IMG/VR virus record: IMGVR_UViG_3300005582_000033 | Span: 1 to 38,447 of that record | Source: a virus | Lineage: Duplodnaviria > Caudoviricetes | Direction: 5' to 3' (one strand) | DNA: 38,447 bases | Part shown: positions 3,205-28,900 of the stretch, one piece after another | Position numbering within the stretch: position 1 is the first letter of the stretch | Layout of the letters: every line of letters starts with the position of its first letter | Position numbers and translations under genes: made by a program | Notes under the pieces: generated by a model | Databases searched by the model: none | What the model was told of the DNA's origin: nothing | Seen by the model: only the letters and a program-made list of their open reading frames with translations

Positions 3205-4742
3205 GTGCGAACGTCGTCAGGCTGAGACTCCGGCCTCGGGCCGCGTTTCGCGAGTTCGTCACGACGACGAAACGATGGGCGTGCCTCGTCGTTCATCGCC
3301 GGGCGGGCAAGACCTTCCACGCGCTCATGAAGCTGGTGAAATGCGCCCTGGAGGACAAGCGGCCGGGTCCGCCGCGCCGGTATGGCTACATCGCGCCGAC
3401 CCAGATTCAGGCCAAGGACATCGCGTGGGGATACCTAAAACGCTTCGTGCATTCCATCCCCGGCATCGGCATCAACGAGGCGGAACTGAAAATCACATTG
3501 CCGGACGGAACCACGATCCGGCTTTACTCCGGCGAGAACTACGAGCGGATGCGCGGGCTCTACTTTGACGGGGTAATCATCGACGAGCCCGAGGACATCG
3601 ATCCGCAAGCATGGCCGGAAGTCATCCGCCCGTGCCTCTCCGACTACTGCGGCTGGGCGGTCTGGGTGGGCACCATCAGCGGCATGGAAGGGCAATATCA
3701 GCGGTATCAATCCGCGGTGCTCGATGACGACTGGTTCGCCATGCTCCTGAAAGCCTCAGAGTCCGGGATTATCCCCGACGATGAGCTGGAAGACATGCGG
3801 AAGAACATGCACCCGGACATTTACGCGCAGGAAATGGAGTGCGAGCCGCGAATCAGCCGGTGCGTGTTCACCACGTCGAGCCTCGACCTCCAAGACAATA
3901 TTTCAGCGATCAACTCCAGCCGTCGCGAGTTCGGCCGGTTCGTCAACCAAGGCACCGAGGAGGAACCTCGCGTGACGTGGACACCGACCGGCGAGGATGC
4001 GGCGATGTCGGTGCGATGGGAACAGCCCAAGGTCGGGCAACGCTACCTCGTCAGCGTCGATTCGGCGAGCGGAGCGGATCAAACCGGCGGCGAAGACCCC
4101 GACTCGCATTCCATCCTTGTTCACCGGGCTGGCTACATTTCGGCGGAGACAGGGGAATGGGTGCCGCCGGCATTGGTCGCTCGCAACATGATGGTGCCTG
4201 CGAACAAGCCCGGCTCGATCTGTTGCTGGTGGGCCCAGGATGTGCTTGAGGATCAGGTGTGGCTTCTCTGCACCTACTACAAGGCGTTCCTTGTGCCCGA
4301 ATACAACCACGACAAGGGACTCGTCGAGGCGATGCGAAGGAAGAACATCCCGACCTACAAGCGCATGATCTTCGACAAGGTGGAGCAACGTGAAGCGCAG
4401 TGTCTTGGCTGGATGACCACGAAGCAGACCAAGCCCCGCATCGTCGCCAAGCTCGAAGTGACCTTGCGCGAGTTGCTCGACCAGGTTGTCGGCGGAGGCT
4501 ACGAAGTTCGGTGCCCGTGGATCTTGAAGCAGATGCGGAATTTTGGGACGTTGCCCAATGGCAGGCAAGAAGCCCTGTTCGGTCATGACGACGACGTGAT
4601 CTCGCTGGCGATCGGCGTGTTCACCATCGACTCAGCAACGCCATTCCATGAGCGATTGGTCGAACGGCAGATTCCCCGCGACCTCCAAAGGCTCTACGAG
4701 GCCCGGCAGATGGGTGCGACGCCAAGCGGAACCTATTCTTGA
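3201..4742 (+). CDS. terL: Terminase large subunit, 513 aa
   Basis: Walker A HRRAGKT, YIAPT, RGLYFDGVIIDE Walker B, VGT coupling motif, nuclease acidic motifs VSVDSASG and GHDDDVISLAIG. True start is ATG 3201, coupled to terS, not 2985. Confidence 0.93.
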   Translation: MSANVVRLRLRPRAAFREFVTTTKRWACLVVHRRAGKTFHALMKLVKCALEDKRPGPPRRYGYIAPTQIQAKDIAWGYLKRFVHSIPGIGINEAELKITLPDGTTIRLYSGENYERMRGLYFDGVIIDEPEDIDPQAWPEVIRPCLSDYCGWAVWVGTISGMEGQYQRYQSAVLDDDWFAMLLKASESGIIPDDELEDMRKNMHPDIYAQEMECEPRISRCVFTTSSLDLQDNISAINSSRREFGRFVNQGTEEEPRVTWTPTGEDAAMSVRWEQPKVGQRYLVSVDSASGADQTGGEDPDSHSILVHRAGYISAETGEWVPPALVARNMMVPANKPGSICCWWAQDVLEDQVWLLCTYYKAFLVPEYNHDKGLVEAMRRKNIPTYKRMIFDKVEQREAQCLGWMTTKQTKPRIVAKLEVTLRELLDQVVGGGYEVRCPWILKQMRNFGTLPNGRQEALFGHDDDVISLAIGVFTIDSATPFHERLVERQIPRDLQRLYEARQMGATPSGTYS

Positions 4743-4772
4743 CCGGCACGCCGCAATCGGATAGCCTTCGGC

Positions 4773-5147
4773 ATGGGTTATTTCCTCGTCTCCCCGCCTG
4801 AAACACGCTGGAACCGACACTCCAATCTTGGCGATCCGACTGACCACTTCACTCCGCCTTTCGAGGGTCCGGTGATCGGATTAAAGCACAAGCCCAAGAT
4901 CGACATCATCATTAACCCGCTCAACGCGGGCAAGACGGAGGCGACATTACTCGACCTACGGCACCGGTGGTTGAATGCGTTCTTCCTCCAGTTGGAAGTG
5001 ATTAACCCGAAAATCCCACACGATGTAGTGGTGGAGTGGGTCATCAACCACTTGCCGAAGACCGCTTCCAGCCTCGCGGACTCGATCGTATCGGCCATCC
5101 CCGAGAAGCTGGCTTTTCGACTGGCAGACGCATGGGAAGCAAAATGA
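4773..5147 (+). CDS. Hypothetical protein, 124 aa
   Basis: Co-oriented ORF filling the gap between terL and 5193; protein-like composition. Confidence 0.55.
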   Translation: MGYFLVSPPETRWNRHSNLGDPTDHFTPPFEGPVIGLKHKPKIDIIINPLNAGKTEATLLDLRHRWLNAFFLQLEVINPKIPHDVVVEWVINHLPKTASSLADSIVSAIPEKLAFRLADAWEAK

Positions 5148-7901: not shown

Positions 7902-10900
7902 ATGTCCGATGAATCCTCTTTTTTCCGCCAGAAGCCTCAAGATGCTGTTCCGACTGGTCAAAGTCAGGAAGCGGTTGACGCCTCCCCGTCCGAACTGAGC
8001 GGAGGTTTTCAGCAACAGGCGCAAGCCCCGGTTTGGAAGAGCTTCGTTGACAACCAGGATTATCAGGACGCGAACCGGGGAGCAATCCAAGCCGAGCAAC
8101 AGCAGATGCGCCAGGCGGCGAGTGCTGCCAGTTCCGGCGACATTTTCAAAGGGGTCAACGGCAAGCTGATCCACAAGGCCCGAGGCCAAAGGCCCGTCGA
8201 ATACGACGCCGCCGATTGGACCGACGACCCGATTGCCGGACCCGAAGCCCGCAAGTCGATGTGGGATCGAGAGATTCGCACGTCCCGCCAAGAGGCGGAA
8301 ACGAATTCCTTGGAGTTGGCAAACCCGGCGTTTCACGCGCAGGAACTCAAGCAGAAAGACCGCGAGGCGATCGAAGCGGAGGGTTCAATGCTCCAAGAGA
8401 CGGACCCCCGCCACGTCGAACTGAAATCGAAGCTCGTCGCCGATGACGACTACAAGGCCCGCAAGGCGGACATGGCGCAACGCGCATGGAACGCCAAAGT
8501 TCGCGCCTCGCAGCTCGAAGCGATGGACCCAGAAGAGTGGTGGATGAACCGCCAGGCGCAACCCGCGCCGACTCCAACCGAACAACGGCAAGCCACCGTG
8601 CAGGCCGCGCAAAGCACAGCGGCACAAGGACAAGCCGCCGACCAGCAAGCGGCCGCACGGATGCAGGAGATCAACACGAAGCTGCAAGGCGGAGTCACTG
8701 CGGCAGAATCCAAGTCGTTACTCGCCGAGCGGGCGGAGATCGCCGCCAACCGCGCGAGGATCGCGGACATCAACGCTGGTGCAGCGGGTCAGATCGAAGG
8801 CGTGAAGGCGGAATCCGCCAACGCAACACCGCCGAAGGACTTCTTCGACCTTGGCGATACCGTTTCCGGCATCTGGGATGCGGTCAAGGGACTCGGAACT
8901 TCCGCGCCCGCCGCGTTTTATCAACTGGTCGAGGGCATGGAACGCCCGGACCAATACTCGGACAGTGCCAAGGCCGCGTTCGCCGAGGCCGATGCGTTCA
9001 ACAAGGAGATGCAGGCGAAGACCGAGGCCAATCAAAAGGCCGGGACATCCTCATCGGTCGGCGAGTCGTTCCGCGAAGCAGGCGGAAGCCTTGGCTTCTC
9101 GCTTGGCTCGATGGCGGCGGCGATTCCCGCTTCGATTGTCGGGACAAAAGCAGGCGCGGCGGCGGGTGGGGCGATTGGCGGCGGAATTGGTGCTCTTGGG
9201 GCAGGCGTCGGTGCTGTTCCAGGCGCGGGCATTGGAGCATCCATCGGCGGAACCATTGGTGGCGTGACGGCAGGTATGGCCGCATCAGGAACCGCCGCTT
9301 ACCGCATGGCGGGCGCGGCATTCCTCAATGAGACATTCAACACCGGATTGCAGGAATATGAAGCCGTCAATGGCGTTCCGATGCCGGAGAACGAGCGCAA
9401 GGCACTCTACGAAGCATTGCTTCCAGTCGCGAAGAACACAGCACTATGGGAAGCCGGACCGGAAGCCGTCGGAAACGCTTTTATGATGGGCGCGGGCAAG
9501 ATCATCCTTGGATCCACCGCGAAGAAGATCGCTGCCGAGGCCGCTAAAGCCGTGCCGGGATTGACGGTCAAGCGCATTGCCGCAATTCAGACGGGCAAGG
9601 TGGTTGGCAGCACCGCTGAACGCGAAGCCATCGGAGCGGCAACAAAGCAAGTCGGATCCAAGTTTCTCAACACCAAGTTGGGCAAGCTCACGGCGGGACT
9701 TGCTGACCTTCCGGTGGAAATCACCACGGAAGCGGCGACTCAGGTGGAGCAGTCCGCCGACCAGCAGAAAGGCGACATGATTGCCCGCGGCGAAGATGCA
9801 AGCGGGATCAAAGCCGACTGGTCCGCTGGAGGCATAGCCGAAGCGTTTAAGGAGGTTACACCGCAGACTCTCGCACTGATGCTCTTGATGGGCGGCGGCG
9901 CGGCCAGCGTCAAAGGGGTTTACAAAGCAGGCGAAAAGGTTCTTAGCGGCGGCGATTACAAAAAGGACAACGCTCGCGCCGGGGAAGCCCTCGAAGCGGT
10001 CAACACCGGGCTCGCCGCGATCGATCCCCAAGCGACGCCCGCCACACCGGACGAGATGCACGCAGCGGCATTCATCGCCCGCCCGACCGACGGACCCGCC
10101 GAGATAGCGGATGCGGTGATGGTCGAGCGCGAGCTGAAAGCACTCAGCGAACAGGAAGCTCAAGGCCGGGCGGACAATCTCGCTGGCATCCAGGCGGAAC
10201 TCGACAATGCCATTGCCAGCGGAGCGAAAGCCCCGGCGATCAAGGCTATCCAGACGAAGCTCGACGCGGCCAGTGCGGAAGCTCCATCTTCCAGCGCACA
10301 CCTTACCCGCGCCGCGCTCCAGATCGCCGCCGGGAAGGATTTGACATCCCTCAGTCCCGAGGAACTCGCGGCAGTCGGATATGAGTCGAAAGATGGCAAG
10401 CCGAAGAAGGATGCCAACGGCAAGGACGTCACGCCGACCACCTACTCACCGATCAAGCCAGCGAAAGGCGCGACCGCCGCATCGCCGATGATTACCAAAG
10501 GCGCGGACGGTTCGATCATTCTGACCGACACGGCCCTCGATATGGTTGCGGCAGCATCGCCCCGCGCTCGCGCCCGGATCACGATGAAGGCGACCGAGGC
10601 TATCGAGAAGGCGAACGTCCGCGCCGAAGCGGCACGGCAAGCAACTTTGGCAGCACCGGCCGCTTCGGGACAAGCGGGCGCGGGGGTTCCGGCTGGTTCA
10701 TCCGCTCCGGTGTTGCCGAACACCTTCGACGTGCCGATGCGCGACGGGACCATGATGCGCGTGCAGGCGAAGGATGCCAACGACGCGCTCCGCGAAGCCG
10801 CCGCAGTTGGTCAGATCGCCGGGACGCCCGCCGTGGCTGTCGCCGCCCCCCCTTCCGCTGGTGCTTCAAATGGTGCGCCGGGAGATCCGGCGACAGGTTC

Positions 10901-13900
10901 CCCGGCGGGTGTCGGGGGTATTGCTCCCTCAGAAACAGGGGCACCGGCGGAAGAGCTCGCGCCAGTCGCCAAGGAAATCGCCACCGCTGCCAAAGCACAG
11001 CAAATCCTCGCCGAGCACAAAGCGGGACACGTCAAAGCCCTGAATGACAACATCCGCGAAGTCGCCAAGGACACGGGGATGAATGTCACCGACAAGACGC
11101 CGCTGCAAGAGGTGATCGACCACCTCGAAGCGAAGTTTCCAACGGCAAAGATCGAGGATGTTCCGGCGGAAACCATCAAGCGGGTGACGAGTCTGGTGGG
11201 TAAGACTTTGGGCGGATACATGAAGAATCCCGCCGTTAAAGCGGTGCTCGTCATCGATCCGAAAAACAAGTTCAAGGCGGGAACGCATACCGACCACATC
11301 AAGATCAATCCCCGTCTATTGATCGAGGAAATTGCCATTGCTGGACTCTCCGACTCCGACGCAAAAACCTACATCGACCGGGTGCTGTTCGAGGAACTTC
11401 ACCACCTTTCGCAAGTCCAGACGTTCGCGGAGATTTACGCGAAGGACAAGCAGGCGGGACCGGATTACGGCGTATGGCTCAACAATTACTGCCAATCGCT
11501 GATTGCGGAGTTCAAGCGGGTCGGCATCTACAAGGATGCGCTCACGGTTTACGGCGAAGACATTCAGGCGAGAGAAGCCTACGTCCAAGTCGCCGAGATC
11601 AATCGCATGATCCTCCAAGACGCGATGACCGGCAACCCGACCGAGGCGACCAAGGCCGCGTTCAGTTCGCCCGCCATCCGTGAAGTCATCACTGCCGCGA
11701 TTGCCAAGCTCAAGAAATTCGTCGCAACATTCCGCGCCAATCCATCCGCATTCTCGAAAGAACTCGTTGAAAACATCGCCCGCGTCGAAGAACTTCTCGC
11801 ACAATATGACATCCCAGAACTCACCGGAACTCCAAACCAAGGGCCAACAAATGCTGGAAATCGTCCAGAAAAGCCAAATCGGAGCGGTCCGAACGCTGGA
11901 ACTCCTAAAGCTGCCGAAGCGGCAAGCAATAGCCAGCCTGCAAGCCCAAGCGGGACTCAGCCGGGCGGACTCGAAACACCTGTTTCATCTGCATGGGTCG
12001 GCAAAAGAGTAGCGTTTGTCCGTAACGGCGAGCGGCTGGAGGGCGAGGTTTCGTATGCCGAAGAAACGTGGCGCGGCCCGCTTCTCCAAGTGAAGCTCGA
12101 CACGCCGGACGCATCCGGCACACCAACCCGCGCGATCTTCCTCGATCAGATGCTGGACGCGACCGGCGCGACGATCACGGGGTTTGAGGATTTGACGCCG
12201 CCGGAAGCATCCACCGAAGACCCAAGCATTCTACCCGAAGATTCACCTAATCTAAGCGATATTGCTGAGAAAAATGAACAGGATTTCGAGGAGGATAGAA
12301 AAGAAATCGAACCACGGTTACCTCAAGGACTCAAGGTTGTCATGGGCGACCAATTTAGAGGTCCGCAAATTCAAGTGTCAATGGACGGCAAGGAACTCCG
12401 GGTGGCACCAGGATTCCTCACAAGGTTGAAAAACAAGTTCAAGTCCGCGTGGAAAGCCGTTATAGACATCGTAATCGATGAAGAAGTATTCCACCATCAG
12501 GACATTGAAGCTCGCGGAGGACAGGACGCCGCAGAGAAGTCATGGGCGGAAGAATGGAAGTCTGCATCTGCCGAAATCAAGAGACTTGTAGCGATAGCTT
12601 ACGGCAAAATGTCCGGCTTGGATGACGCTCAGAAAGGCGCGGAACTCTCCCGGATGAAGAGCCAGGTTGCACGGCTGGGGAAAATGACGGAATCCATGAG
12701 CACGGATTCCAAGCGCGTCGAGGCCGCTACACGGTTGGTTGAACTTCTTTCGCCACAGCAGCAATCGACTCCACAGGATACTGCGGAAGTTGCAGAACCG
12801 CCACAGGACAATGCGGAACCCGCCGCGATGACGTTCAAAGAACTCCAAGATGAGTTTTTTAACATGGCGGTGGAGGGGTGGAGAAAAGACATGCCATTCA
12901 GGCAAGAGGCTGACGAAATGCTTGGGCGGAAAGTCACTGACGCAGAGTGGGAGATTCTCGATCAAGAGTTCTTTGACGGTTCTGAGGAATACGACAAGAT
13001 CACCAACACCGCCCCAGTCGGACCGCCCCGCGACTGGTCCGGCGAAACCTTCGCCGACGACGCTCCGCTGCCGCTGGGAATCCACACTGTTGACGGTGTG
13101 CGGTTCGAGTGGAAGGAAGGCGAGATCAATGCGGTGGACCCTGGCTTCTTCCCGGTGACTACTTCCGGCTATCGGTCGGTGATGAGCGGATTCAACAAAG
13201 ACGCAAAATTCACGATCAACGACTACCGAAAGCTCGCCAAGGACGGCGAAAAGGTCGTCAAAGAGCAGTTCGCGCTGGAGAAAAAGAACATTCTCAAGGC
13301 CCTGAAATCGAAGGGCATGGGGTGGGAACTCTCTGGCCTGCGGCAGAAGTTCGATTCCAAAAACCACGATGCGGAAATCTCCCGTTGGCCGGAAAAGCTG
13401 CGGGTTGAAATGGTCGCCTTAACCAAGCAGTTGCTCGACGCGATCGCCAGCAAGGATGTCGTCGTCGAAGACCCGACCAACAATGATGCCCTCAAGAATG
13501 TCGCCGCCGAACTGAAGAATGCGTTCGATGCGTTCATGGGCAAGCCCGCCGCGCCCGCCGCGGAAGCGAAGCCCGCGAAGCCGAAGAAGGCAAAGGCCGC
13601 GCAACCCGAGCCGGTCGCGACTCCAGCAGTCGCCGACAAGGTGAACGGCATGATCCAAGCCGATGACGGCAAGTTCTACGCCGACACTCGCGCGATGCAG
13701 CAACTCAACAGCGATGAGAAGCGCGTTCAGCATGAACATATCGGATTCGGAGACTTTGAAACCAAGACCCCGCACGGGGATGTCGCTTGGCTTCGCATGG
13801 ACGACAAGAACTTTGAGGGAATGACCGGGCGGGTGCATTTACTCGCGGGCAACGAGGCATCCGTCGCGTTCCTCGTCGATGTTCTGAGATCGAAGGGAGT

Positions 13901-16900
13901 CTTTGAACCTGGCCCGGCGACACCAGCCGAAAAAGCCCCCGCAGCGGCGGAACCAAGCACCCGCGAAGTCACCCTAGACGACGGCAGGGTGTTGCAAGTT
14001 CGAGGCGAAGGAGCGGCTACCTATTGGCGCGACCCAACCGTGACCAATGGCCCAGGTGCAGGCGCGTTCATTTTGGCATCGCCGGAGTTTCGCAAGCAGA
14101 TCGAAGCGGCGGAGTCCTCCCCCGCCGCGACGGTCGATCCCGCGCTTGAAGCCGCCCGCGCGAAAGCCCGCGCCGTGCTCGATGGACTGTTCGCCGGGCC
14201 TTTGCCGTCCAACCGCAACGCGCTCCGCGCCGCACAACTGCCGAAGGGATTCACCCAAGAGATTCCCGCCGAACGCTTCATGCCGCTCATGGAAGCCGCG
14301 AGTGCGATGGTGCAGGCCGGAGTCAACACCCCCGAGGCACTCGCCGCGGAAATGGACAACCTCGCACCCGACCGCAAGGCCGTGCCGTTCGTGCAAGCGT
14401 TCTGGTTCGCGCTCAAAGCCGCCGGTGCCAAGGGCAAGGCGGAACCCAAGTGGGCGACCATCTACCGCGATCTTGACAGCAAGGCCGAACAGGCGCAGAT
14501 TTCAACCAAGGAACAACCTGATGAGCAAACTCAGCGAGACGGAAACAGCGGAAGTGCTACTGATGTTGGGACGGAAGAACCTACTTCACGCCCCGGCGAA
14601 GGCACTGACCCAGCTTTGGATCCAAGCGCAGGAGGGGACGTTGCCACCGGAGGAATTCAGCCCGGACAGCCAGATGGCAGCGGACGAGGCGAGTTACCGG
14701 GCGGATCTGTTCCAGGAGGTGACGGAGATGTTGTCGGAGCAGGAGATAACGACGGCGCGCCTGAAGGAAATAGCGGAAGCGGGAGTTCCGTGGCTGGAGC
14801 GGGAGTTCGTAATGCAACACGACCCGAGCTAGGATCACCCGAGGCGAATTTCGTCATCGAAGATGGTTTTTCGATGCCCAAGGGCGAGAAAGCCCGTATC
14901 GCCGCCAACCTCAAGGCAATCACCCTGCTTCGCGAGATCGAGGCGCAAGGCCGGGATGCCACGCTGGAAGAGAAGAAGATTCTTTCCGCTTACTCCGGCT
15001 GGGGATCGTTCAAGAATGCGTTCAACCGGGTCAATCAGAAGAATTGGCTATCGATCAACGAACGTCTCGAAAACGCCTCGCCTTACTACCGCGACAACAT
15101 CCGCGACTCATCGGCCTACCAAGAACTCCGCGCATGGCGTGACAAGTGGGGCGAACTTTTCGACACCCTCGACGAGATGCTTTCGCCGGAAGAATTCCGG
15201 GCAATGTCGAAGTCCATCCGCAACGCTCACTTCACCGCGCTGCCGATCATCGATTCGATGTGGAACATGGTTCGCGCGATGGGATTCAAGGGCGGCAACG
15301 TCCTCGAAACGTCGGTCGGTGCCGGATACTTCGTCGGTCGCCAACCGGTTGACATGGCGAACGTCTCGAAGTGGTCGGCGGTCGAGCTGGATTCGATCAC
15401 CGCCCGCGTGTTCTCCAAACTCTACCCCGAGTCTCGGATCAACGGCAACGCGCCGGATGCTGGCCGGGTGGTTGACGGGCAAGGATTCCAGAAATCCAAG
15501 ATCCCGAACAACTCGCAGGATCTCATCATCGGCAACTTCCCGTTCGCCAAAGACGGGCCGATGGAATCGTTGAAGGAGTTCGGGCGAAAGCTCAACCTTC
15601 ACAACTACTTTTTCGCCCGGTCCATCGACAAGCTCAAGCCCGGCGGCATCCTGATTGCCATCACGTCGAATTCGACGATGGACAACAACATCATCCAGCG
15701 GGAATTGATCGCCGGCCGCGTGGAGTTGGTGCAAGCCATCCGCCTACCGAACGACGCTTTCAAGGAAAACGCCGGAACCGAAGTAACCACCGACATCCTG
15801 ATCCTTCGCAAGAAGGACGGAAGCCGCGACGCGCAATCCGAATCATGGACCAACACGGAATCGGTCGGCGAAGATACAGTTTACGCCAGGCAGGGCGACA
15901 AGTCGGATCACGCATTTCTTTCGGAAATCTCCCCCGATTGGGTGCCGGTCGATGAGGATTTGCGCGAACCATGGAAGGAATGGCGGGCCAAGAAGTCCAA
16001 GAGCGGCGTGAAATGGGACTTGCTCACGCACCTAATCAACAATCACCGCTACGGAAGCCAAGGCATCCCATTCCGCGCTCAGATGGTGGTGAACGAATAC
16101 TTTGCCCGCCACCCCGAGACGGTCATCGGGCGGCACGCGCTCGAAGGATCGATGTATTCCGCCGGTTCCTACGCGGTGGTTTCGGACGGTGTGGACGTGC
16201 AAGCCCGCCTCAACGAACTCATCAAGAGCCTGCCGTCGGACCTGTTTGAAGAATCCGAGCTTGGCTTGTATTCCGAGCCGGAAACCATCGAGGCGAGCGC
16301 ACAACACCGGAACGGGTCGATTGTCCTCGTCAACGATCAACCTCACCACGTCGTCCAAGGCGAGCTTGTGCCGGTCCGCTGGGATCTGGAATACACCGAA
16401 GACTTCCTTGCCGATGCGAAAGAAGTGAAAGCCGTCTTGGCTGGCAACCCGGAACTCAAAGCGAGGTTCGCCGCCACCTTCGACACGCTCAACGGCAACA
16501 TGCTTGCCAACTGGATCGACGGATTTCTCGACGAGCATCTCACGCCCGAGACGGCGAAGAAGATTCGCGACAAGATCGCCAAGGAGGTTGCCCGCCGCAA
16601 TGCGGTGTTCAAGTCCTGGGTCAAAGTCAGGGATTCCGCCCGCGCTCTCATGGATGCGGAGCTTCGCGGCGACCCGGCGGGAGAACTCTACCGGGAGGCT
16701 CTCAACCAGTCCTACGACGCCCACGTTGCCGAGCATGGGGCATTCAGCGCACGCAGCCGAGCAGGATCGCGGAATCCTCACAAATTCCTTTTCGACGAGG
16801 ACGATAGCCCGCTTCTCGAATCGCTGGAGGACGAAGTTCTCACCGGCACCGACGACAAGGGCAAGCCGATCTACCGTTACGAAAAGCGGCCAATCTTCAC

Positions 16901-19900
16901 GGAATCGATGGTTTCCAACGCCATCGCACCAACCTCCGCGAAGGACATCAAGGAAGCCGTTGGCACGTCGATGGGCTACAAGGGCCGGATCAGTCTGAAA
17001 TACATGGCGAGCTTGCTGAAAGTCTCCAAGGACGAGGCGGCGAAGCAACTGGCGGAATCAGGACTCGCGTTCAAGAATCCGAAGTCCGGCCTTTACGAAA
17101 CCGCCGACTTCTACCTTTCCGGCGAAGTCCGCGCCAAGCTCCGCGAAGCTGAAGAGGCGGAAACCTTGGAGAAGGGGGTTTACCAGTCGAACATCGAGGC
17201 ACTGACCAAGATCATCCCTGAAAACCGGCCAATCCAAGCGATTTCGGTCATTCTTGGAAACCGCTGGTTGCCTGGGTCGATCTACTCGAAGTTTGCCGAC
17301 GAAGTTATTGGCATGGACACGCCGGAAGTCCGCTACGAACAGGCATCGAATAGTTTCAAAATCAATACCGCCGGAGATAACAAGCGTCGTCGGAATCGCG
17401 GTGAGCGGGACGTTCGTGCAGCAGATCCCGATTACCTTGGAACCGATCGCGTTCGCCCCGAAGAGATTTTCGAGAACATCCTGAACTCGCGCGAAACCAA
17501 AGTGATGAGGGCGGGTCCGACACGCGGATCCATCGTCTTGGATGCAGAAGCCACCATCGAGGCGCAGACCAGGGCCGGTCAGATGATGGACAAATTCGCC
17601 GAGTGGGTGAAGACATCGAAGGACGAGGTAGAACACGAAGGGAAAACCTACCGTGTCAGTGACTTGGCGGAGCAGGAATTCAACGACAAGGTGGCCGGAC
17701 TCGTCACCCCGACCTACGTCGGCGAGTGGGTGACGCTCCCCGGCCAATCCGGCGAAATCTGGCTCAAGCCGCACCGCAAAGCCGTCCTCGCCCGCTTGCT
17801 GACGATGGGTTACGGCATGATGGCGCACGGTGTCGGTTCCGGCAAAACCTACAACCAGATCGCGCTCGCGATGGAACTCCGCCGACTTGGCAAGGCCCGT
17901 CGGGTGGTGACGATCGTTCAGAACTCGACGATCCGGCAATTCGCCGCGTCTCACATGAAGGCGTATCCACACGCTAAAATCCTTGTCGCCGACGAAGAAA
18001 ACTTCTCCGCCCGCAAACGCGCCCGGTTCCTCGCGAAGATCGCCACCGGCGATTATGACTCGATCATTATGACTCACTCGAACATTTCCCAGATCGGGCA
18101 TGACGAGCAGGCGATTCGTAATTACATGGCGCGGGCGATTGGCGAAATGGAGGAAGTGCTTGCCGGCGCGGAAGCCGGAAGCCAGCAGCAAGGCGACATC
18201 CAGGCGGCACTCGACCAACTGCAAGAAAAGCTCGAAAAGCTGCTCGCCAAGGCCACAAGCCGCGCGGGCAGTGTCCTGACATGGGAACAGCTTGGAGTGG
18301 ACGCGATCATCGTGGACGAGGCGCACGAATTCAAAAACGCGCCGATCATCACCCGCAAGGAGCGGATCAAGAACCTTCCAGCGTCAGGAACAGCGTCCGA
18401 CCGGGCGGTGATGATGCAGATGAAAACCCGCAGCGTGCAGAGCATGACCGGCGGGAAGAACGTGTTCTTCGCCACCGGCACGCCGATCACCAACACGATG
18501 GCGGAAGCCTACACGATGATTAACTTCATCGCCCCGCACATCCTCGAATCGAAGAACATCAACAATTTCGACGACTTCGCGACCATGTTCGGCCGCACCG
18601 TTTCGGAACCGGAAGCGACATGGCGCGGGGCAATCGAGATGGTCGAGCGGTTCGCGAAATTCGTCAACGGCCCGGAGCTTGTCGCGCTCATCCGGTCGGT
18701 GTTCGACGTGGCACTTGGCAACGAGAACTTGGGAATCCGCGTGCCGCGAATCAAGGGCGGCGGGCCGGAAATGCTCATCGTGGAACCCACCGAGGCCAGC
18801 GAGATTTTCAACGATTGGGTGATCGACACCGCTGCGGAGTTCGACGGCATTCAGAACAAGCGGGCGGCTTTCCAAGAAGACCCGTGGATGCAGGCAATCC
18901 CGATTATGATTATGCAGGCAGGCATGGCGCAAGCCATCGACCCGCGCCTCATCAATCCGATGGCCCCGGATGATCCAGCGTCCAAGGTCAACCAGCTCGT
19001 CGCGCGGATGATCGACATTTACAAGGACGGCACCGAGCGCAAGACCGCCCAAGTTGTTTTCACGGACCTTTCTAACCCGTTCTCCACCCTATTGCTCAAG
19101 CAATTCAACGGCGACCCGTTCGCCGAGTATGGCGACGTTACCCCGGAAATGGCCGATCTTGAAGCGCAGATCATGGCGGCACCGACGGAAACCCCGGCGG
19201 AGAAGAAAGCGAAGACAAAGCTCGTCAATCGTCTCTCCGATCTTGCGGAAAAGCGGTTCAGTCTGATGGACGACATCAAGCAAAAGCTCGTTGCCGCCGA
19301 CATCCCCGCGAGTGAAATCTTTCTGGCCGATTCCTCGATCAACCCGAAGAAGCTCAAAGCATCGTTCGACAAGGTGAACAGCGGAGAAATCCGCATCATC
19401 ATCGGATCGACCGCCCGCCTTGGAACCGGCGTGAACATCCAAGAGCGTCTCGCAGCCGCTCACAACCTCTCCCCGCCGCGCGACTTCAAGCCGGCCATGA
19501 TGGAACAGCGGATCGGACGCATCGAGCGGCAAGGCAACTTGCACCGCGATTGGGCGGATCAGGCTCTTGTCCACGTCGTGCAGAAAATGGCGAAGATTTC
19601 GTTCGACGCGAAGAAGCTCGAAGACCGCTATGAGATGGCTATCGACTGGCTGGAAAAGAACGGCACCGACAAACAGAAGGAAATCGCCCGCAAGGCCGAG
19701 GCGCAATTCGAGATCATCGTCATCAACTACGGGCTGAAATTCTCCATGGATTCGTCGGTTTATTCGATGATGAAGGCGAAACAGAAGTTCATCGACCAGG
19801 TTCTCATGGGTGAGAACGTCACCGATGAATTCGATGATCCGATGTCGGCGGAATCCAACGCCTTCGCGCTGATGGCGGCGGAAGCGATGGGTGACGAGAA

Positions 19901-22900
19901 TTTGAAGCGGCGCGTCATCCTCGACGGTGAACTGAACAAGCTCACCGCCCTGCGGACGGCGCACGTCCGCGACAAGAACAACCGCGAGAATACCTTGGAC
20001 CGTGCCAAGAACGATGTCGCATCGCTCACGCGGCAAGACCCCGACGGCATACGCGCCGAGGGCAAGAAGTTCGCCGGACTCTATGGCCGGAAGAAGCGGA
20101 TCGTCAAAACGACGAAGGGAGCGTTTGAAAAAATCTTTCCCGGTCATTTCGGAAAAATTACTGCCGAACAGGAAAAAGAACCGTGGGAGCGCGAAGTTGA
20201 AGCTCCGGTTTATCGATTCGCCGATCAAGAGATCGACACGGCCAAGTCGGATCAAACGATCACCAAACCGCTGAATGTGTTCATCGCGGACGCAATGGTT
20301 GACGCCAAAGACACCGGGGAAATCGCAACCCGTGACATCACGCTGAACGGCGAGCGGTTCGTTCTCGCCGTCAGTCACTACAAATCCTTTGGGGAATCCC
20401 GCTACTCCGCCCGTGTTGTGTGGCCCGGCAAGGTCGCCGGCCGCGTGGTGTTCGAGGCTTCCGTCAACGTCAGCGGCGAATCTCCGGCATCGAGCCTTCT
20501 CGACGGACTTCGCACACTTTCCAACCCCGACTACGCTGAGAAATACGCCAGCAACATCGAGCGCGAGATCGAGATGCACCAGCAGACCGTCGCGACGCTG
20601 GAACCACTGGTTGCCAATCCCCGCCCGTTCGCCGAAGAACAGGAATGGCGCGAGAAGTCCCGCGAGTCCATCGAAGTCAACCGCTTGCTCGCTCAAGCGA
20701 ACTCTGACCCGCGCAAGCATCGCTACTTTCGGGCACTTTCCCGATTGGTCGGCGATGATGCCACCGAGCAAATCCTTGGCATCGACGGCAAGGAAGGATT
20801 GCCCGATGTCCCTGCCGACGTGTGGAAACGGATGTTCATCCGCTTCCGGTTGGATCGCCGTGGCGTGCAGAACAACCCGGCGGCGATTGCGAAGAGGTTT
20901 CGCGATGTGGTTGCTACCGACACCGGCCAAGCGGCTGCGGACGCAGCGCGAGCGGAAGCTGATGCCGCCCGTGGAGGGCTTGGCAACTCCCCGATTGCGG
21001 GCATTGCGCCCGGAGTCATCACCGACGAAATGATTGCGGATCTGACGCGCAAGCTGACTCCGCCCGGCTTCATGTTCGCCTCTCCTCGCTACCGGAAGCG
21101 GGACGGGCGACTTGCCACCCTCCGGGGTATAGAGAACAAGCTGGCCCCCAAACTGGAAGCCCTCGAAGCCCGCGATATGTTCGGTCTTGGATTGGCGGAC
21201 AAGCGCGATCACGCGGCGAAGATCGCAGCGGCGAAAAAGCCACTGGAGAAGATCCGCGCGGAAATCGCGAAGATCGAAAAGGACAAGTATCAGGAGACGA
21301 TGCGCGGCGAAACGAGCTTGCTCCGCGCAGGCCCCCTCCCCGCCCCTATCCTCACCAACTCCCCCGAGTGGATGGCGATGGACAAGGACGAACGCCTTGC
21401 CACCGTCAAGCGGCAGAAGAGCGTCGCCCGCCAATACGTCGAGGCGATCAAGTCCTTGTTCAACGAAGACCTTGGGACCAACGACGGGCTGAAAGACGTG
21501 CCGGAAATCAACTCCAACCCGGTCGAGATGATTCGGGAGATCCGGCACTTGGTCGGCATCACGATCAACGGAATGCAACCGCTCCGCGCCGGGCCGTTAC
21601 CAGCGTCACAGGCATGGTCAACGCCACAACAAAGAGTCAGCAGTAAGGCGACCAGCATTTCATATCCCGATCCTGCCAACAAAAGCCCGATTGTTTTCAC
21701 TGCTTTCAAGGCCGGGAAAATCTCCATCGGTCCAATCAATGCGGACATCGGTGGAGGTCGATTCGATCAGATCACGAATTGGCTGAAAACCCGAGGCGTA
21801 ACGAATGTCGTGTGGGATCGGTTCAACCGTTCCGATGAGTTCAACAATGCCTCAAAAAAACGACTCCAAGGAGGCAAGGCGGACACTGCTACTGCGAGCA
21901 ATGTTCTGAACGTCATTCCAGAAAAGGAATCACGGATTGCCACCATCGCCACCGCTTTCGACTCGATCAAAATTGGAGGAACCGCAGCGTTCTCCATGTA
22001 TGAAGCTCCGCAGGGTGGTGACAAGGGTAAGGATTCCTACCAGCACTCCAAGAAAACAGCGGAATACATTCCCGAGATCGAAGAGGTTTTTGGCAAGGGC
22101 AACGTCAAACGCATCGGCGAGATCCTCGTCGCAACTAAAAATTCACCGCTTCAAGCCGGACCCCTGCCAGCCCCCGCGACCGACTTCAAGCGGTTCCCGG
22201 CGGAATGGAACTCCCTCAACGTGCCACGGGCGGAAATGCCGCAGGTTCCAACGTCGGAGCGTCCGGCGTTCCTGCAATTCCTCAAGGATGCAGGCGTGAA
22301 AGTGACCGACGAGCAGATGGCACCGAAGGCGATCACGCCGATTCAGATCGAATATTTCCCATCGAAGGTCGAGCGGGCGAAAGGCATCCCGCCGGAACGT
22401 CGCGTGTTCGTGTCCGCCGACAACTACCTCCTTGACGGTCATCACCAATGGATGGCGCAACGCGACCGCAGCACGGTGAACGTGACCCGGATCGGGCTAC
22501 CGGTGCGCGAGGCGATCGGGACCATGTTCCTGTTCCCTGGCACCGAGAAGCGCGAGGGTGGTACAGCACTCAACGCTGGGCCGCTGCCGCAGAATACCGG
22601 AGTAAAGGCTTATCGCTATGTGAACCGGGATGGAGTCGGCATGTTAAATCGGGAGGCATACAACATCGATAAACTCAACGACGATGACGCTTCCGATTTA
22701 GAAGAGTGGCTCAACTACGGATTGCAGCAACCGCGAGGCGTGGCAAACGACCAAGTTTTCCTCTTTACCGAGGAAGGAGACGCGAAACATGCGGAAGGGC
22801 TTCGCTTGCTCAAGAAAGCGGCGCGGCGTGGTTTCGTGAAGCAAACGGTATTCGTCTCTGGAGAACCCTCATGGGAAAGTGGCGATGGTCAGATTGCGGT

Positions 22901-25900
22901 ATCCTCATCACAGATCAAACAGACATCCCCCGGCAACCTCCGTGCCGGTCCACTCCCCGCCCCGGATCCGCGCCTTGTGAAAGAGTTCGGCGAGAACTTC
23001 GAGGCGGACGAATACGGAATGCCGGTCATTCCTAAAACCCTGCCGGACGGGCACCCATTGTTGGTGCAGACGGTGGATAAGAAAACCGCGACCATTCCGG
23101 CGGATCACCCGCTGGTTGCCGGTCTTCCCAAGGATCACGACTTAGCGAGGGGACTGCCCGCCGACCACCCGGCATTCAAGGGCGGATTCCTCCAGTCCGG
23201 GGAAATGTCCCGCCGCGCCATGCGCCGCGGCATCGTCCGGTTTTTCATGTCTTTCGGGACTCCACTGGCGGATGACGTGAAACCGATCGCCTACGCCACT
23301 GGCGGCGGCGGCGGGGCTGGTAAGTCCACCATTCTGAAGATTCTCAGCGGAGAGGGCAGTATCAACACCGTTGGCGCAGTCCCGGTGAACTCCGACGACA
23401 TCAAGGCACTGATTCCCGAATGGAATGAAATCGTCAAAGCTGGCGACGGGCGGGCGGCGGCAATCGTTCACGAAGAGTCTAGCAAGACGGCGAAGGACAT
23501 CCTTGGTAAACTCCTGACCGGCGACACGAAATACAACTTCATTTACGACGCCACCTTGGCAAACACCGAAAAGAGCATCCGCCAGTTCGGCGAGTGGAAG
23601 GCAGCGGGATTCGACGTAGTGATGATCGCCGTCACCATCGATCCGCAGGAAGCGGTTGTTCGTGCAACGCTCCGCGCCAAGGAAACCGGGCGATGGGTGC
23701 CAACCGGCGAACTGTTCAAGGCTCACGCCGGGTTCAACCGGGGAGTGATGGAGCTGATGGGCATCGCCGATACGGCATACGCCTACGACAACACGCCTCC
23801 AGAGGCTCACAAAATCGCCGAGAAATCTTCCGAAACGGATACGATTTCTATTGTCAATCAGGAGTTTTTTGAGAAGATCAAATTGCGTGAAGAAGAAGTC
23901 CCAACTCAGTCAAATCAAGATGCCGGCGATAATCTCCGCCGAGCAGATCAGCAAGGAACGCGCTCGCCAGAAGGCGGCGGACAAGGCGGCAATGGCGCGG
24001 ATCAAGGCCAAGGGTCGCTAACCCCCCCCGAACTCGCCCGCCTGATGCGCGGCGACCGGGGCGACGACACCATCGAGCCGACCGGGCAAGAGGAATGGGC
24101 GAAGCGCAACCCGGCCAGCGCGGCAAAACTCCGGGCGGCAGTGGACCGGCAGGCCCGCGCCAAGGGCTACACACCCGAAAAGGTTTTTCATACCACCGAA
24201 TCCACCGAATCAACGGCAGGGAAAACGTATCCTTACGCTCCTGGCGATCTGCGATACACTGGCACCAAAGCCGAAGATTGGGACGAGGTATCCATCAACG
24301 AAAGGGGCGCGTTCTACGTCACTGACGACAAGGACGCGGCAGACCAATTTGGATGGCTGAAAACCCGTTACAAGTCGCTCAAGCATCGGACCATCGAGCT
24401 TTACGCCAAGCAGGGCAACTACTTCGATTCATCCAATCCCGATCACATGGAGTCCGTCAAGCGGTCGGTGACACGGGAAGAACTGAAAGCCTCGAACGAC
24501 TTTTGGGAAGACTTCCACAAGAAGAACCCAGATGGGGGATTCGTGAACAAGAACACATCTCCTCCGCGATGGGGGCAGTTTTGGAAGAAGGACATTGTTG
24601 GATGGCAGGTAATGGAAGATCATCGCGTGATCGCCAAACTCAAAGAAGCGGGTTTCGATGGATACCGGTCGCGCGAAATGAGCCCGGATGAGGACAATGA
24701 GATCGATTTCATGTCTCTTGGCGTATTCAACCCTTCCTCCGTGAAATCTGCGGATCTTGTCACCTTCGACAAGTCCGGCAAGCCAATCCCGATTTCCGAG
24801 CGTTTCGACGATTCCAAGCCCAGCATCCTCTACGCCGGACCACTGCCGACGGCGCAGAACAACGACGCCGAGGAACTCGCCCGCCTGATGAAAGGCGACG
24901 GCGCACGCGAGCCAGAACCGACAAAATTTCGGGAGGATAGAGCCAAATACATAAAGTGGTATGATGAAAGATTAGAGAGGAAGGATGAATTCAACTTGCT
25001 GAATCCGAACAATCGCGGAGATGCCGCCACCGCGCTGTATAACGAATACCTCTCCCGCCAGCCGTTTGCGAAGCTGCCGGAGGAAAGGAACTACCGGGGA
25101 AACATCTCCGACGACCTTCTTACGCCGACGACCAACCAAAAGTTTTGGGCGGAGCGTAATCCGGTCAGTGCTGCCAAACTCCGCAAGGCCGTGGACAGCC
25201 AAGCCCGCGCCAAGGGTTACGAGGTGGATATGCTCCTTCACGGCACTCCAGGCAACAACAAGGAGATCGCCGACGACTCGCAGAAGAATGGCCCGAACGA
25301 AATTCGGAGTTACGATGGCACCGCCCCCGGTGACTTCGACGTGTTCGACGCGAAGAATACCCGGCAAGGAATGGGACTCCATTTCTTCACGAAAGATCGG
25401 GTTTTCGCCGAAGAATTCACGACGTTTGAGGACACCAACGGCAGACGTCCGGGAGGCTATCGCTACATCCCCGCCTATCTCAAAATCCGCAAGGCATGGG
25501 ACAGTAGAAATCCTGAGCATCAAGACATTATCAGGGATCTTGTTCCAGAAGATCAGCAACAACACATTGGATCCGAATTTACTTTTAGATACGTCGAACA
25601 ACCGGACGCGATTGCTCGCCTCAAGAGTCTAGGCTTTGACGCTATCCGACTTTTTGAAAATCCAGGAATGTCCGGAGATTGGGCTTATGATGGATACACT
25701 CACACCGTCGCCGTCTTCAATTCCTCGCAGGCCAAGGATGCCTCACTGGTGACTTTCGACAAGTCCGGCAAGCCAATCCCGATTGCGGAGCGGTTCGACG
25801 ACAGCAAGGATTCCATCCTTTTCGCCGGCCCGCTGACGCCCGCCGATCCTCTTTCATACAAAAAAGCGGATCAAACAGACCCGTTAAGGCAAGGGTCTAA

Positions 25901-28900
25901 GTATTGGATAACCAGCGGGGGAACTTGGTATCAATCCATTGGAGAGCACGGCAATTCCGCCGCAGAAATGGAAGATGATGGGATATCCACTGATGACGCA
26001 ATTCGGGTTGTAGTCGAAAACGGGAAAACATTGTTTTTTGAGGGTTCACCGAACCGGCGACAACTGAAAGAATTGAAAGATGCAGCTCAGATGTATCGGT
26101 TCGATCTGATTGACGATTCAGGAAGATTGTATGCCGGGCCAATCGGCACCCCGGCCCCCGAGGGAGACATCTTCCGCCGCAACGTGCCGATCAACCCCGC
26201 GCTTGTCGAAGAAGCCAAGGCCGAACGCGAGGCATTCGGCAAGAACATGGCCGGTGGTCGCCTCGCCGGTTTCGGGTCCGACCGCACCCGCGCGGAGCAG
26301 GACGCCATTGATGCCGTCTATGAGTTCACCCGCACGGTGCAGAAGAACGCCGATACGATGAACGTCGCCCGGCAGATGCTCGCCCGCGATCCTGCCGACA
26401 TCGAGCGCAAGCTCCTGGATTCCGTCACCGACAAGGATTTCAACCTCACTCCCGCCGATCATCTTGCCATTCAACTCCTGATCGACCGCAAGACGCAGGA
26501 AGCCGGCAACGACCCGAACAAGCTCGCCGAGAACGGAGCGCGGATGATGGCCTACCGGATCATGCGTGGCGATGCCGGCCGATTGCTCCAGATCGGGTAT
26601 GATCGTTACCTCACGCCCGCCGAGCGCAACCTGGCCTCAATCACCGACGCCATCTTCACCCCGACGAAGAAGATTCAGAAGGTCATCGCCAGCCGCCCGG
26701 TTTCCGAGCGGGCAGCGTTCATCCGCGCCGCCGCAGAGGCTCGCGTCAAGACCGTGGAGGCAGAGCTGAAAAAGGCCGGGTTGTCGATTGCCGAAATCAC
26801 CCGCAAGTCCGATAAGCTCGCACTCGAAAACTCGCAAATGATGAAGGAGGTGATGAAGCTCCGCAAAACGCTCGACCAGAACATCCTCAAGATGATTCAG
26901 CACGGCGCGACGCTCGCCGACATCAATCGCCGGTATGGCCCGGAAGCCGCCGCGCAGGCGCAGGGCATCAAAGACAAGGCGATGGACGAACTCGAAGCCA
27001 AGATCACGCCGATGGTGCAGGCTGGCATGACCATGGAAGAGATCGTTGCCAAGCTGGGAGCGTTGCAGGCTGGTCCCATCGGTGGAGCTACCCCCGCGCC
27101 GCTCACCCCGGCGCAAGTCGCCGCCCAGGTCGCGCAGATCATGGCGAACGGACTGGGACTCGCACGCGGCCCGATTGCCGCCACCGCGCCACTTCCCCGC
27201 GCTGCCCGCGCCAAACCACTCGTCAACGTCGCACCGACGGCGATCAACTCCGATTGGTCCCGTCCGATCATCAATGCCGCGCTCGACACCTACACCTTCG
27301 ACACGAAAGACCGCTCGGGGATTATGACTCGCGTGGAGAACATTCGGATGCTCGCCGGGGCCGTCGGCCAGATCGACAAGCTCGACCCGGCGAAGAAAGC
27401 CCAGGCACTCGCCCACCTCGCGGAGATCGACAAGATCCTCGCGAAATACGGCACCGACACCAACACGCTGTTGGCCGAGGTCCACGCCGGAAAGCCCGTC
27501 GAAAGCTACCGTTTCGACATCAACGACGTGCAGCATGTCGCACACATCGCCCGGATCATTTCAACGATGGACGCCGACTGGATCGACAAGGCCAGCGAAG
27601 TTCTTTACGCGAACATGCTCTCCGGCCTGCAAACGATGGTCGTCAACGCGACGGCGGTTTTTCCAGCCGCATGGGAAGCCACCGTTGGCCGCGGCTTTGA
27701 GATGGCGATCAACATCGCGGTCGGCGACCCCCTCGCCCCGCAGGCTGGGGAAATGAAATACATCCTCGCCGCACTCAAGCCTGCATGGACGCGGGCATGG
27801 TCCAACTTCTCCGCATCGATGCAGGCGCAACACCCGATGTTCGACCGGGACGTTCTCAACCAGCAACCCGACATCGAGCGCGTGATGGGCGGCAAAGGCT
27901 ACCGCATGGGCGGCAGCATCTCCGGGAAAAAGGGCGACATCATTCGCATCCCATCCCGCCTCCTGATGGCGACCGATGACTTCAACATGACGCTGTTCAC
28001 GATGGCGGACGTGGGAGCATACGCATTCCGATTCGTGAAGTCTCAGGGATTCAAGCCTGGCACGCCGCAATTCGACAAGGAGATGCGGATTCAGATCAAC
28101 ACCCCCGGCAGTGAGTCCTACATCCTCGCCGCCACGCGCTACAAGCGGGCGATCTTCTCGAACCCGCTGCCCGGCGAACGGGATCCGGTGACCGGCAAGA
28201 CGGTGCCGGTTCACGGGCTGGGTGACATGGTTGGCGAGTGGGCGGGCAAGCTCAACGGAGCACTCACCAAGGAGCATGATTCCATGTTCATCAAGCTCGC
28301 GCAAACCTTGGCGAAGATCAGCTTCTTCCCGTTCCAGCGCGTGCCGTTCAACATCCTGCGGAAAGGCATCCGCTACACGCCGAATCCGGTAAGTCTGTTC
28401 GACATCGGCCTTGGGATCGTCCAAAACTCCCTCACCACCGGACCCAACGGCGAGACGGTTTGGGAGTGGAACACCAACAAGCGGAATGCCGAACTCATCG
28501 AGCGGCTGGGGATGCAGCTCCAAGGCGCGGCATTGCTGACGCTGTTGGTTGCGGTCGGTGCTGGCGAGGGTGACGACGACGACTTGAAGAAGCCATTCCT
28601 CATCACCGGATCAATGCCGTTCACGCCGCAAGGCCGGGCGATGCGCGACGCGCAGACCCGCAGCGGACTCGGACCTTCGAGGTTCAGCTTCCGCAACAAG
28701 GACGGCACGGAGCGGTTTGGATTCAACTATGGCAGGCTCGAACCGCTCGCCACCACGCTCGCCGCAACCATCGACACGGTTCGCGCCGTGAAGCGGGCGC
28801 ACCGCGCGGGTAAGGACAACTACGACGCCGCAGCCGAGGCACTTGGCGGACTGGTCGCGCAGGCCAAAGATAAGTCATTCCTTCGCGGAGTGTCCGACCT

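What the first reader, a model, noticed from the sequence alone, without database searches (positions are those of the whole stretch)
14473..14832. Hidden 103-aa gene nested in the +1 frame of the giant ORF, with its own promoter-like and RBS-like signals, just before the DarB methylase
Seen: the main frame reads as a G/D/S/P linker (EQTQRDGNSGSATDVG...GSGSSVAGAGVRN) over the span where the +1 frame reads MSKLSETETAEVLLMLGRKNLLHAPAKALTQLWIQAQEG...ASYRADLFQEVTEMLSEQEITTARLKEIAEAGVPWLEREFVMQHDPS*. About three quarters of its codons end in G/C, like real genes here. Upstream are TTGACA-N17-CAGATT and AAGGA. It stops 14 nt before the DarB module begins. Inference: an overprinted regulator, chaperone or inhibitor of the methylase-helicase that is expressed independently of the late polyprotein. 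Standard gene callers would miss it.
Basis: partly seen in the sequence, partly recalled or inferred. Interest (0 to 1): 0.82.

Follow-up and report, generated by a model that had tools for sequence, protein, structure and literature searches.

The report
Hidden gene inside phage antirestriction giant
A conserved 103-codon reading frame lies out of frame inside a phage's 7,210-codon DarB-like methylase-helicase gene, behind a conserved promoter-like motif; it likely encodes a small protein of a previously unnamed family that is weakly predicted to bind the helicase and would likely keep it switched off in the cell that makes it.

Summary
Confirmed: a +1 ORF (14521-14832, 103 aa) lies inside the giant ORF, just before the DarB-like methylase. 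Selection acts on the nested frame (dN/dS 0.37 against 2.2 in the main frame, one pair). The main frame stays open in all 10 loci tested. Nine close homologs share start and end. The protein defines an acidic five-helix family with a PDSQxA motif that is not detectably TnpV- or Ulx-like and tracks one helicase clade. A TTGAC-N-N17-NANNNT motif precedes it in 8 of 8 close relatives: 7 nt before a leaderless ATG in four, farther off with a Shine-Dalgarno in four. One of these (L178) was a held-out check. In 75 of 80 DarB-bearing viral loci a +1 ORF that outscores the main frame fills this slot, mostly TnpV-like. This scan reported that TnpV-type nesting on other DNA before. Binding to the helicase has only weak model support (0.56, controls 0.00). 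Best reading: an internally expressed inhibitor or keeper of the DarB motor (about 50%). No expression data; not found in print.

The parts
14521..14832 (+). Nested +1 gene, 103 aa, acidic (pI 4.4), predicted five helices; founder of the 'PDSQ' family
14662..14691 (+). Codons 48-57, PDSQMAADEA: the family's most conserved motif, at the end of a low-confidence loop and the start of helix 3
   Evidence: A57 invariant and P48 nearly invariant in 28 rows; loop 45-52 has pLDDT under 50
14473..14478 (+). -35-like hexamer TTGACA
   Evidence: TTGAC kept in 8 of 8 close relatives
14496..14501 (+). -10-like hexamer CAGATT, 17 nt after the -35; keeps A2 and T6 (3 of 6 consensus positions match)
   Evidence: not called by the strict scan
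14508..14512 (+). Shine-Dalgarno-like AAGGA, 8 nt before the ATG
   Evidence: related contigs read GAGGA
14520..14831 (+). Main-frame G/D/S/P-rich linker of the giant protein (aa 2207-2310), kept open but free in sequence
7902..29534 (+). Giant 7,210-aa polyvalent protein gene, between terminase and portal genes
   Evidence: phrog_10089 DarB-like antirestriction
14847..15821 (+). DarB-like adenine methylase module (catalytic motif reads NFPF)
   Evidence: (Eco57I E 1e-4, under the curated cut-off)
17622..19871 (+). SF2/SNF2-type helicase of the DarB module; weakly predicted partner of the nested protein
23887..24021 (+). Second candidate nested +1 ORF (44 aa from GTG, 33 aa from ATG 23920), directly after the Zeta-toxin domain
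   Evidence: L051 has a +1 ORF at the same place after a homologous Zeta domain
11806..12012 (+). Third candidate nested +1 ORF (68 aa, or 53 aa from ATG 11851), after an EELHH-motif domain
   Evidence: no relative found

Best explanation
A conserved second reading frame inside the giant gene's linker likely encodes a small acidic helical protein, likely made from its own internal promoter, that is weakly predicted to bind the DarB-like helicase encoded just behind it and would likely hold that motor inactive in the phage-producing or prophage-carrying cell. Shown from sequence: the nested frame is under purifying selection while the main frame is only kept open; start, stop and promoter-like motif are conserved; the gene stays with the methylase-helicase cassette while flanking modules are swapped. 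Inferred: transcription by host RNA polymerase independently of the late structural operon; binding to the helicase; inhibition; release when the giant protein is packaged or injected, so that it works only on freshly delivered DNA. Writing the gene in the linker ties inhibitor and enzyme into one cassette, as an antitoxin is tied to its toxin. My odds: about 0.93 that the gene is real and translated, about 0.5 for this mechanism.
For: Selection (window against L002): dN/dS 0.37 nested and 2.2 main; amino-acid identity 67/104 and 51/104; differences by nested codon position 30/19/40. Of the 16 variants listed inside the ORF in related contigs, 10 are at nested third positions; 9 are silent in the nested frame and 3 in the main frame (118 further rows not shown). 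The main frame is open in all 10 loci tested, although random synonymous recoding of the nested gene leaves it open only 0-14% of the time. Nine homologs at 64-95% identity share start and end; five more at 28-45%. The promoter motif is in 8 of 8 close relatives, with leaderless spacing (7 nt) in the four lacking an SD, and in 9 of 70 dereplicated loci against 0.27% of 7,812 background windows. Held-out L178 has the family (E 4e-6 among 24,875 segments), the motif and the 7-nt spacing. Upstream domains differ between relatives while the methylase-helicase always follows. Homology with L002 is one block, aa 2044-4360. The helicase clade of 7 rows (SH-aLRT 100) is all PDSQ type. Complex with the helicase: score 0.56, best of 3 controls 0.00; the mark was reached by 116 of 157 solved complexes and 2 of 215 mismatched pairs, but at 0.60 or under by only 18 of the 157 and by both mismatches; runs agree in at least 3% of contacts; partner pLDDT at least 69. 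Small +1 ORFs also follow Zeta and other enzyme-like domains in these giants, which fits an enzyme-plus-keeper layout.
Against: No transcript, ribosome or peptide data. The complex pass is weak, one of three runs scored 0.00, no interface was given, and the tool rates such a pass as more often wrong than right unless the guess was likely beforehand. Binding does not tell an inhibitor from a chaperone or activator. The methylase was not tested as partner. dN/dS comes from one pair. The promoter pattern was defined after seeing the window and L002, and it is absent before the PDSQ-like genes of L029 and L021. An open +1 frame is itself likely given this linker: 35-78% in 9 of 10 loci. P1 DarB has no long upstream part and is paired with Ulx, described as aiding DarB localization (PMC9024508 table), which favours a packaging role for DarB partners.
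Confidence: 0.5

Rival explanations
1. The nested protein is a dedicated chaperone or packaging factor for the DarB module, doing the job of P1 Ulx: it helps the giant protein fold or enter the capsid, without inhibiting it.
For: P1 Ulx is listed as aiding DarB localization (PMC9024508). Thermus Lalka phages keep ulx next to darB (PMC11437467). No Ulx homolog was found in Lessieviruses (PMC9144972), so the role is vacant there. The same position, co-inheritance and weak binding evidence apply.
Against: No profile similarity to Ulx (probability 0.2%). A separate host-type promoter is not needed by a factor wanted only during late assembly (inference).
Confidence: 0.2
2. It is an early anti-defence protein in its own right, such as an acidic DNA mimic or decoy of host restriction enzymes, and sits beside DarB because both counter restriction.
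For: All 28 family rows are acidic (pI 4.05-5.21). The promoter-like motif would allow expression on entry. A low-confidence Atlas model of homolog P0017 had a type I methylase as top structural row (TM 0.53, under the tool's bar, model pLDDT 0.51).
Against: Net charge is modest (19 acidic, 8 basic residues). No fold match to known mimics in PDB or BFVD (absence is inconclusive). The slot is fixed against the methylase while other modules shuffle freely.
Confidence: 0.15
3. The +1 frame is reached by frameshifting from the giant ORF and gives an alternative C-terminus to a shorter giant protein.
For: In the window the +1 frame is open from 14044. In the PBC5 record the equivalent ORF is annotated as the end of orf33.
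Against: Homologs begin at the same Met. The open stretch upstream of the ATG is not kept: 22 codons in L002/L005 against 159 here. Promoter and SD or leaderless spacing point at the ATG.
Confidence: 0.05
4. There is no second gene; the ORF is a shadow of a Gly/Asp-rich linker, and the database homologs are gene-caller artefacts.
For: Recoding the linker leaves the +1 frame open 75% of the time in the window, and 14 of 184 +1 runs are as long. No family or fold match.
Against: Substitutions favour nested third positions. The PDSQ motif persists in proteins of 15-30% identity. The model is confident (mean pLDDT 83.5). The promoter motif is in register with the ATG.
Confidence: 0.04

Closest known systems
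Polyvalent proteins with the DNA methylase-helicase dyad, archetype P1 DarB (Iyer et al. 2017, PMC5512222; passages seen)
   Same: The host gene is a giant multi-domain protein among head genes, with adenine methylase, SF2 helicase, Zeta and ART-PolyVal domains.
   Different: The passages seen describe no gene nested in these proteins; 'linker', 'TnpV' and 'low complexity' do not occur in the main text. Supplements not seen.
Embedded Rz1 within Rz (described in PMC9144972)
   Same: A small gene lies wholly inside another in a shifted frame on the same strand, and the two products are likely partners.
   Different: The host here is a 21.6-kb gene whose overlapped part is a free linker; the nested gene has its own promoter-like motif; no membrane or lysis role.
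TnpV-like nested genes before the DarB methylase
   Same: Same slot, same +1 frame, about 100-110 aa, acidic and helical.
   Different: No significant profile match (0.4-1.5%); none of 28 family members hits PF14198; PDSQ motif; the promoter motif is found before few TnpV-type genes (L033, L051, L053).
P1 Ulx (146 aa, gene downstream of darB)
   Same: A small protein genetically tied to DarB.
   Different: A free-standing gene after darB, with no detectable similarity; reported role is localization of DarB.
Type II toxin-antitoxin and polymorphic-toxin immunity genes (recalled)
   Same: A small acidic partner gene is fixed next to an enzyme and moves with it; a +1 ORF also follows the Zeta domain.
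   Different: The partner is written inside the enzyme's own gene; toxicity of DarB to the producer and its neutralisation are untested.

Membership tests
Overprinted (fully nested) gene | ORF wholly inside another gene in a different frame, host frame intact | tested here: met
   (10 of 10 loci)
Overprinted (fully nested) gene | Purifying selection on the nested frame | tested here: met
   one full pair plus 16 listed variants
Overprinted (fully nested) gene | Own initiation signals conserved | tested here: met
Overprinted (fully nested) gene | Translation shown | not testable with these tools
   no RNA holder listed
TnpV (PF14198) | Match to the Pfam model | tested here: not met
   0 of 28 members at E 0.05 or better; window protein none
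TnpV (PF14198) | Profile similarity to TnpV-like nested proteins | tested here: inconclusive
   hhalign 0.4%, 0.4% and 1.5%; weak hmmsearch hits (best E 3e-4 among 43) in inconsistent registers
TnpV (PF14198) | Same fold | not tested
   no TnpV model was made or superposed
Ulx | Sequence similarity to P1 Ulx | tested here: not met
   hhalign 0.2%; single-sequence target
Ulx | Virion-associated and needed for DarB incorporation | not testable with these tools
   needs virion proteomics and knockouts
DarB-like methylase-helicase polyvalent protein (host gene) | Adenine methylase fused N-terminal to an SF2 helicase | tested here: met
DarB-like methylase-helicase polyvalent protein (host gene) | Gene among packaging and head genes | tested here: met
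   terminase, portal and major head protein hits flank it
DarB-like methylase-helicase polyvalent protein (host gene) | Packaged, and protects DNA from restriction | not testable with these tools
   known for P1 only (PMC5512222, PMC9024508); DarB-like gp69 found in JC1 virions (PMC9144972)
Antitoxin / immunity protein | Binds the linked enzyme | tested here: inconclusive
   weak support, 0.56 against controls 0.00
Antitoxin / immunity protein | Neutralises its activity | not testable with these tools
   needs an ATPase or toxicity assay
Sigma-70-type promoter | -35 TTGACA, 17-nt spacer, -10 near TATAAT | tested here: inconclusive
   -35 and spacer perfect, -10 matches 3 of 6; strict scan negative, but spacing and A2/T6 are conserved in 8 of 8 relatives

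The most novel reading that the evidence does not exclude
Giant injected phage proteins are dual-coded cassette arrays: each enzyme module (DarB motor, Zeta kinase, JAB-like and others) carries its own off-switch gene overprinted in the adjoining linker and expressed from an internal host-type promoter. The slot before the DarB methylase has been filled at least twice by unrelated proteins (TnpV-like and PDSQ). The 'low-complexity linkers' of polyvalent proteins would then be the shadows of a hidden layer of inhibitor genes.
Probability: 0.35. Interest if true: 0.88.

Novelty: new variant of a known kind. Interest (0 to 1): 0.7.

Why it matters
DarB-like giants take up a fifth or more of many phage genomes, and how they are controlled is unknown. 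A hidden partner gene in a fixed slot (75 of 80 loci surveyed; unannotated in 5 of 6 cultured-phage records) gives a direct handle: a candidate inhibitor or chaperone that can be expressed and assayed. It may be the accessory factor that a Lessievirus paper reported missing. This window adds a second protein family in the slot and a conserved internal promoter motif that switches between leaderless and SD-led use. It also warns that deletions or insertions in these 'linkers' hit two genes.

Tried and rejected
Family scans found nothing for the 103-aa protein: Pfam, PHROGs (best E 0.29), NCBIfam, PDB sequences (best E 0.27). Fold searches found no match: BFVD, PDB wide (best Z 3.8), PDB Foldseek; this does not show a new fold. 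The Atlas gave no usable feature hit; the type I methylase structural row is under the bar. No homolog of P0014 among cultured phages, none of P0017 in GTDB genomes, and no family member in the 80 genome loci, so the host is not identified; the only pointer is the Akkermansiaceae MAG label on P0017. No RNA holder listed. TnpV homology in several eye-picked registers was not supported. A re-start of the main frame after the nested stop, giving a free DarB, was rejected: the Met seen in the window, L002 and L178 is absent in 7 of 10 loci. No + strand terminator-like site lies in 13500-15500. No close relatives of the Zeta or EELHH modules were found, and L002 lacks them. The careful helicase tree did not finish; the quick tree is cited, built on 61 of 75 helicase hits after I left out 14 near-duplicate or long-insert rows. 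Main-frame dN/dS above 1 is read as a side effect of overlap, not as positive selection. The Piya et al. 2017 Ulx paper was not held. Literature searches (listings only, except the four papers cited) showed no report of a gene nested in DarB-like genes; subscription papers and supplements were not seen.

Full report
Setting. The window is a 38,447-base virus record, about 63% complete. PHROGs places terminase subunits before, and portal and head proteins after, a 7,210-aa ORF at 7902-29534. That ORF has a DarB-like methylase and SF2 helicase, a Zeta-toxin domain and an ART-PolyVal domain. It is therefore a polyvalent protein with the methylase-helicase dyad described in PMC5512222 (passages seen).

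A +1 ORF runs from ATG 14521 to TAG 14832 (103 aa). Over this span GC3 is 0.77 in the nested frame and 0.39 in the main frame, against 0.71 for the whole giant. It ranks first of 86 alternative-frame ORFs by codon score (+31 bits; the fourth scores -1). Length alone proves nothing: 14 of 184 +1 runs are as long, and recoding the linker leaves +1 open 75% of the time.

It is a gene by comparative tests. Nine database proteins of 64-95% identity start at the same Met and end at the same HDP motif; five more lie at 28-45%, one cluster labelled Akkermansiaceae. One independent phage contig, L002, has the same nesting with the giant frame intact; L003 and L004 are identical to the window. Against L002 the nested frame has dN/dS 0.37 and 67 of 104 identical residues, and the main frame 2.2 and 51 of 104; the methylase control gives 0.12. 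In contigs of four freshwater runs, 16 variants are listed inside the ORF (40 rows shown, 118 not): 10 fall on nested third positions, 9 are silent in the nested frame and 3 in the main frame. The giant frame is also under constraint: it is open in 10 of 10 loci where random synonymous recoding of the nested gene would leave it open only 0-14% of the time. AlphaFold gives a confident five-helix model (mean pLDDT 83.5) with a flexible loop at 45-52, and no fold match.

The slot is general. All six cultured phages examined (Pavtok, Bcep22, PBC5, POI1126, Itty13, LASTA) have a top-scoring +1 ORF of about 105 aa before the methylase. Five records do not annotate it; PBC5 annotates it as the end of orf33. 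Five of the six give weak TnpV hits below the cut-off. Among 80 viral loci with a DarB methylase (the best 80 of 320, not independent, some duplicating cultured phages), the best nearby alternative ORF is in +1 in all 80 and outscores the main frame in 75. This scan had already noted the TnpV-type nesting on other genomes; I reached it first, and take those notes as leads only.

What is new here is the family. The window's protein does not match the TnpV-like set (hhalign 0.4-1.5%), PF14198 (0 of 28) or P1 Ulx (0.2%). Its profile picks out, among 81 slot segments, L013, L030, L029, L019, L020 and L016 (E 4e-5 to 7.5e-3), which share a PDSQxAxxxA motif. Profile against profile gives 80%, E 1.3e-5, over the 30 columns around the motif. 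On a quick helicase tree of 61 rows the window sits in a clade of 7 (SH-aLRT 100), all PDSQ type; L029, L021 and L034 form a second group beside TnpV-like L051. Remote homology to TnpV is not excluded. The scan's index held no look-alike of this protein.

The promoter is better supported than a consensus scan suggests. The strict scan finds none, and the loose motif occurs 7 times in the window. But TTGAC-N-N17-NANNNT precedes the nested start in 9 of 70 dereplicated loci, against 0.27% of 7,812 background windows (two of the nine defined the pattern). It is present in 8 of 8 close relatives. In L002, L013, L016 and L178 the -10 ends exactly 7 nt before an ATG that has no SD, the geometry of a leaderless transcript (established knowledge). 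In the window, L019, L020 and L030 it lies 19 or 41 nt away and an SD is present. L178 was fetched afterwards (51% helicase identity; not in the tree) and met all three predictions: family, motif and spacing. L029 and L021 lack the motif.

Function. Domains upstream of the slot differ between relatives, while the methylase always follows. Window and L002 share one block, aa 2044-4360, with swapped flanks. So the gene travels with the DarB cassette. The verdict was weak support: 0.56, best of 3 controls 0.00; the mark was reached by 116 of 157 solved complexes and 2 of 215 mismatched pairs, but at 0.60 or under by only 18 of the 157 and by both mismatches; runs agree in at least 3% of contacts; partner pLDDT at least 69; one of three runs scored 0.00. 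The methylase was not tested. Small +1 ORFs also follow other enzyme-like domains: after Zeta in the window and at the same place in L051, and after a JAB-like domain (motif recalled) in nine loci. Together these favour a keeper that is made ahead of, or apart from, late transcription and holds the motor off until delivery (0.5). The rivals are an Ulx-like chaperone (0.2), an independent anti-defence mimic (0.15), a frameshift product (0.05) and a shadow ORF (0.04).

Novelty. Nested genes are known (Rz1 in Rz; PMC9144972). Eight searches showed no paper on genes nested in DarB-like or polyvalent genes. I saw passages of PMC5512222, PMC11437467, PMC9024508 and PMC9144972, and only listings for the rest; no supplements were read, and those of PMC5512222 could bear on this. 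PMC9144972 states that no Ulx or other Dar accessory homolog was found in Lessieviruses. Verdict: a real, unannotated nested gene of a new small family; new variant of a known kind; interest 0.70.

Noticed in passing
window 23887-24021 and L051:8418-8597: A +1 ORF directly follows the Zeta-toxin domain in both phages and stops at the same main-frame LTP; a candidate nested antitoxin.
   Followed up: partly
window 11806-12012: A +1 ORF with gene-like codon use follows a domain with an EELHH motif (zincin-like, recalled; no Pfam hit); no relative found.
   Followed up: partly
L036, L037, L039, L045, L049, L052, L058, L062, L065, L070 at about 15640-15925: A conserved 58-69-aa +1 ORF (PxxFDTLQxW motif) follows a domain with an HNHP motif (JAB-like, recalled) late in the giant gene.
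   Followed up: no
window giant protein aa 4476-6390: A short AGP(L/I) motif recurs nine times and appears to mark module boundaries in the C-terminal half; possible cassette junctions.
   Followed up: no
window 15534-15545: The methylase catalytic motif reads NFPF in the window and L005, where six cultured phages have NPPF.
   Followed up: no
window 4739-4767: The same TTGAC-N-N17-NANNNT motif lies 5 nt before the ATG of ORF 4773-5147.
   Followed up: no
L178:6684-6809: A second, 41-aa +1 ORF lies just upstream of the PDSQ gene.
   Followed up: no
L087 (4655-6232): Three further +1 ORFs with gene-like codon use lie upstream of the methylase slot in one giant gene.
   Followed up: no
L010 (Itty13) and L008 (PBC5): The Itty13 record annotates three opposite-strand ORFs instead of the giant gene. 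The PBC5 record has the upstream giant in frame with the nested ORF, either a frameshift or a sequencing error, which also explains its match to phrog_938.
   Followed up: partly
L051, L029, L021: Closely related helicases carry different nested types (TnpV-like in L051, PDSQ-like in L029 and L021), suggesting replacement within the slot.
   Followed up: partly
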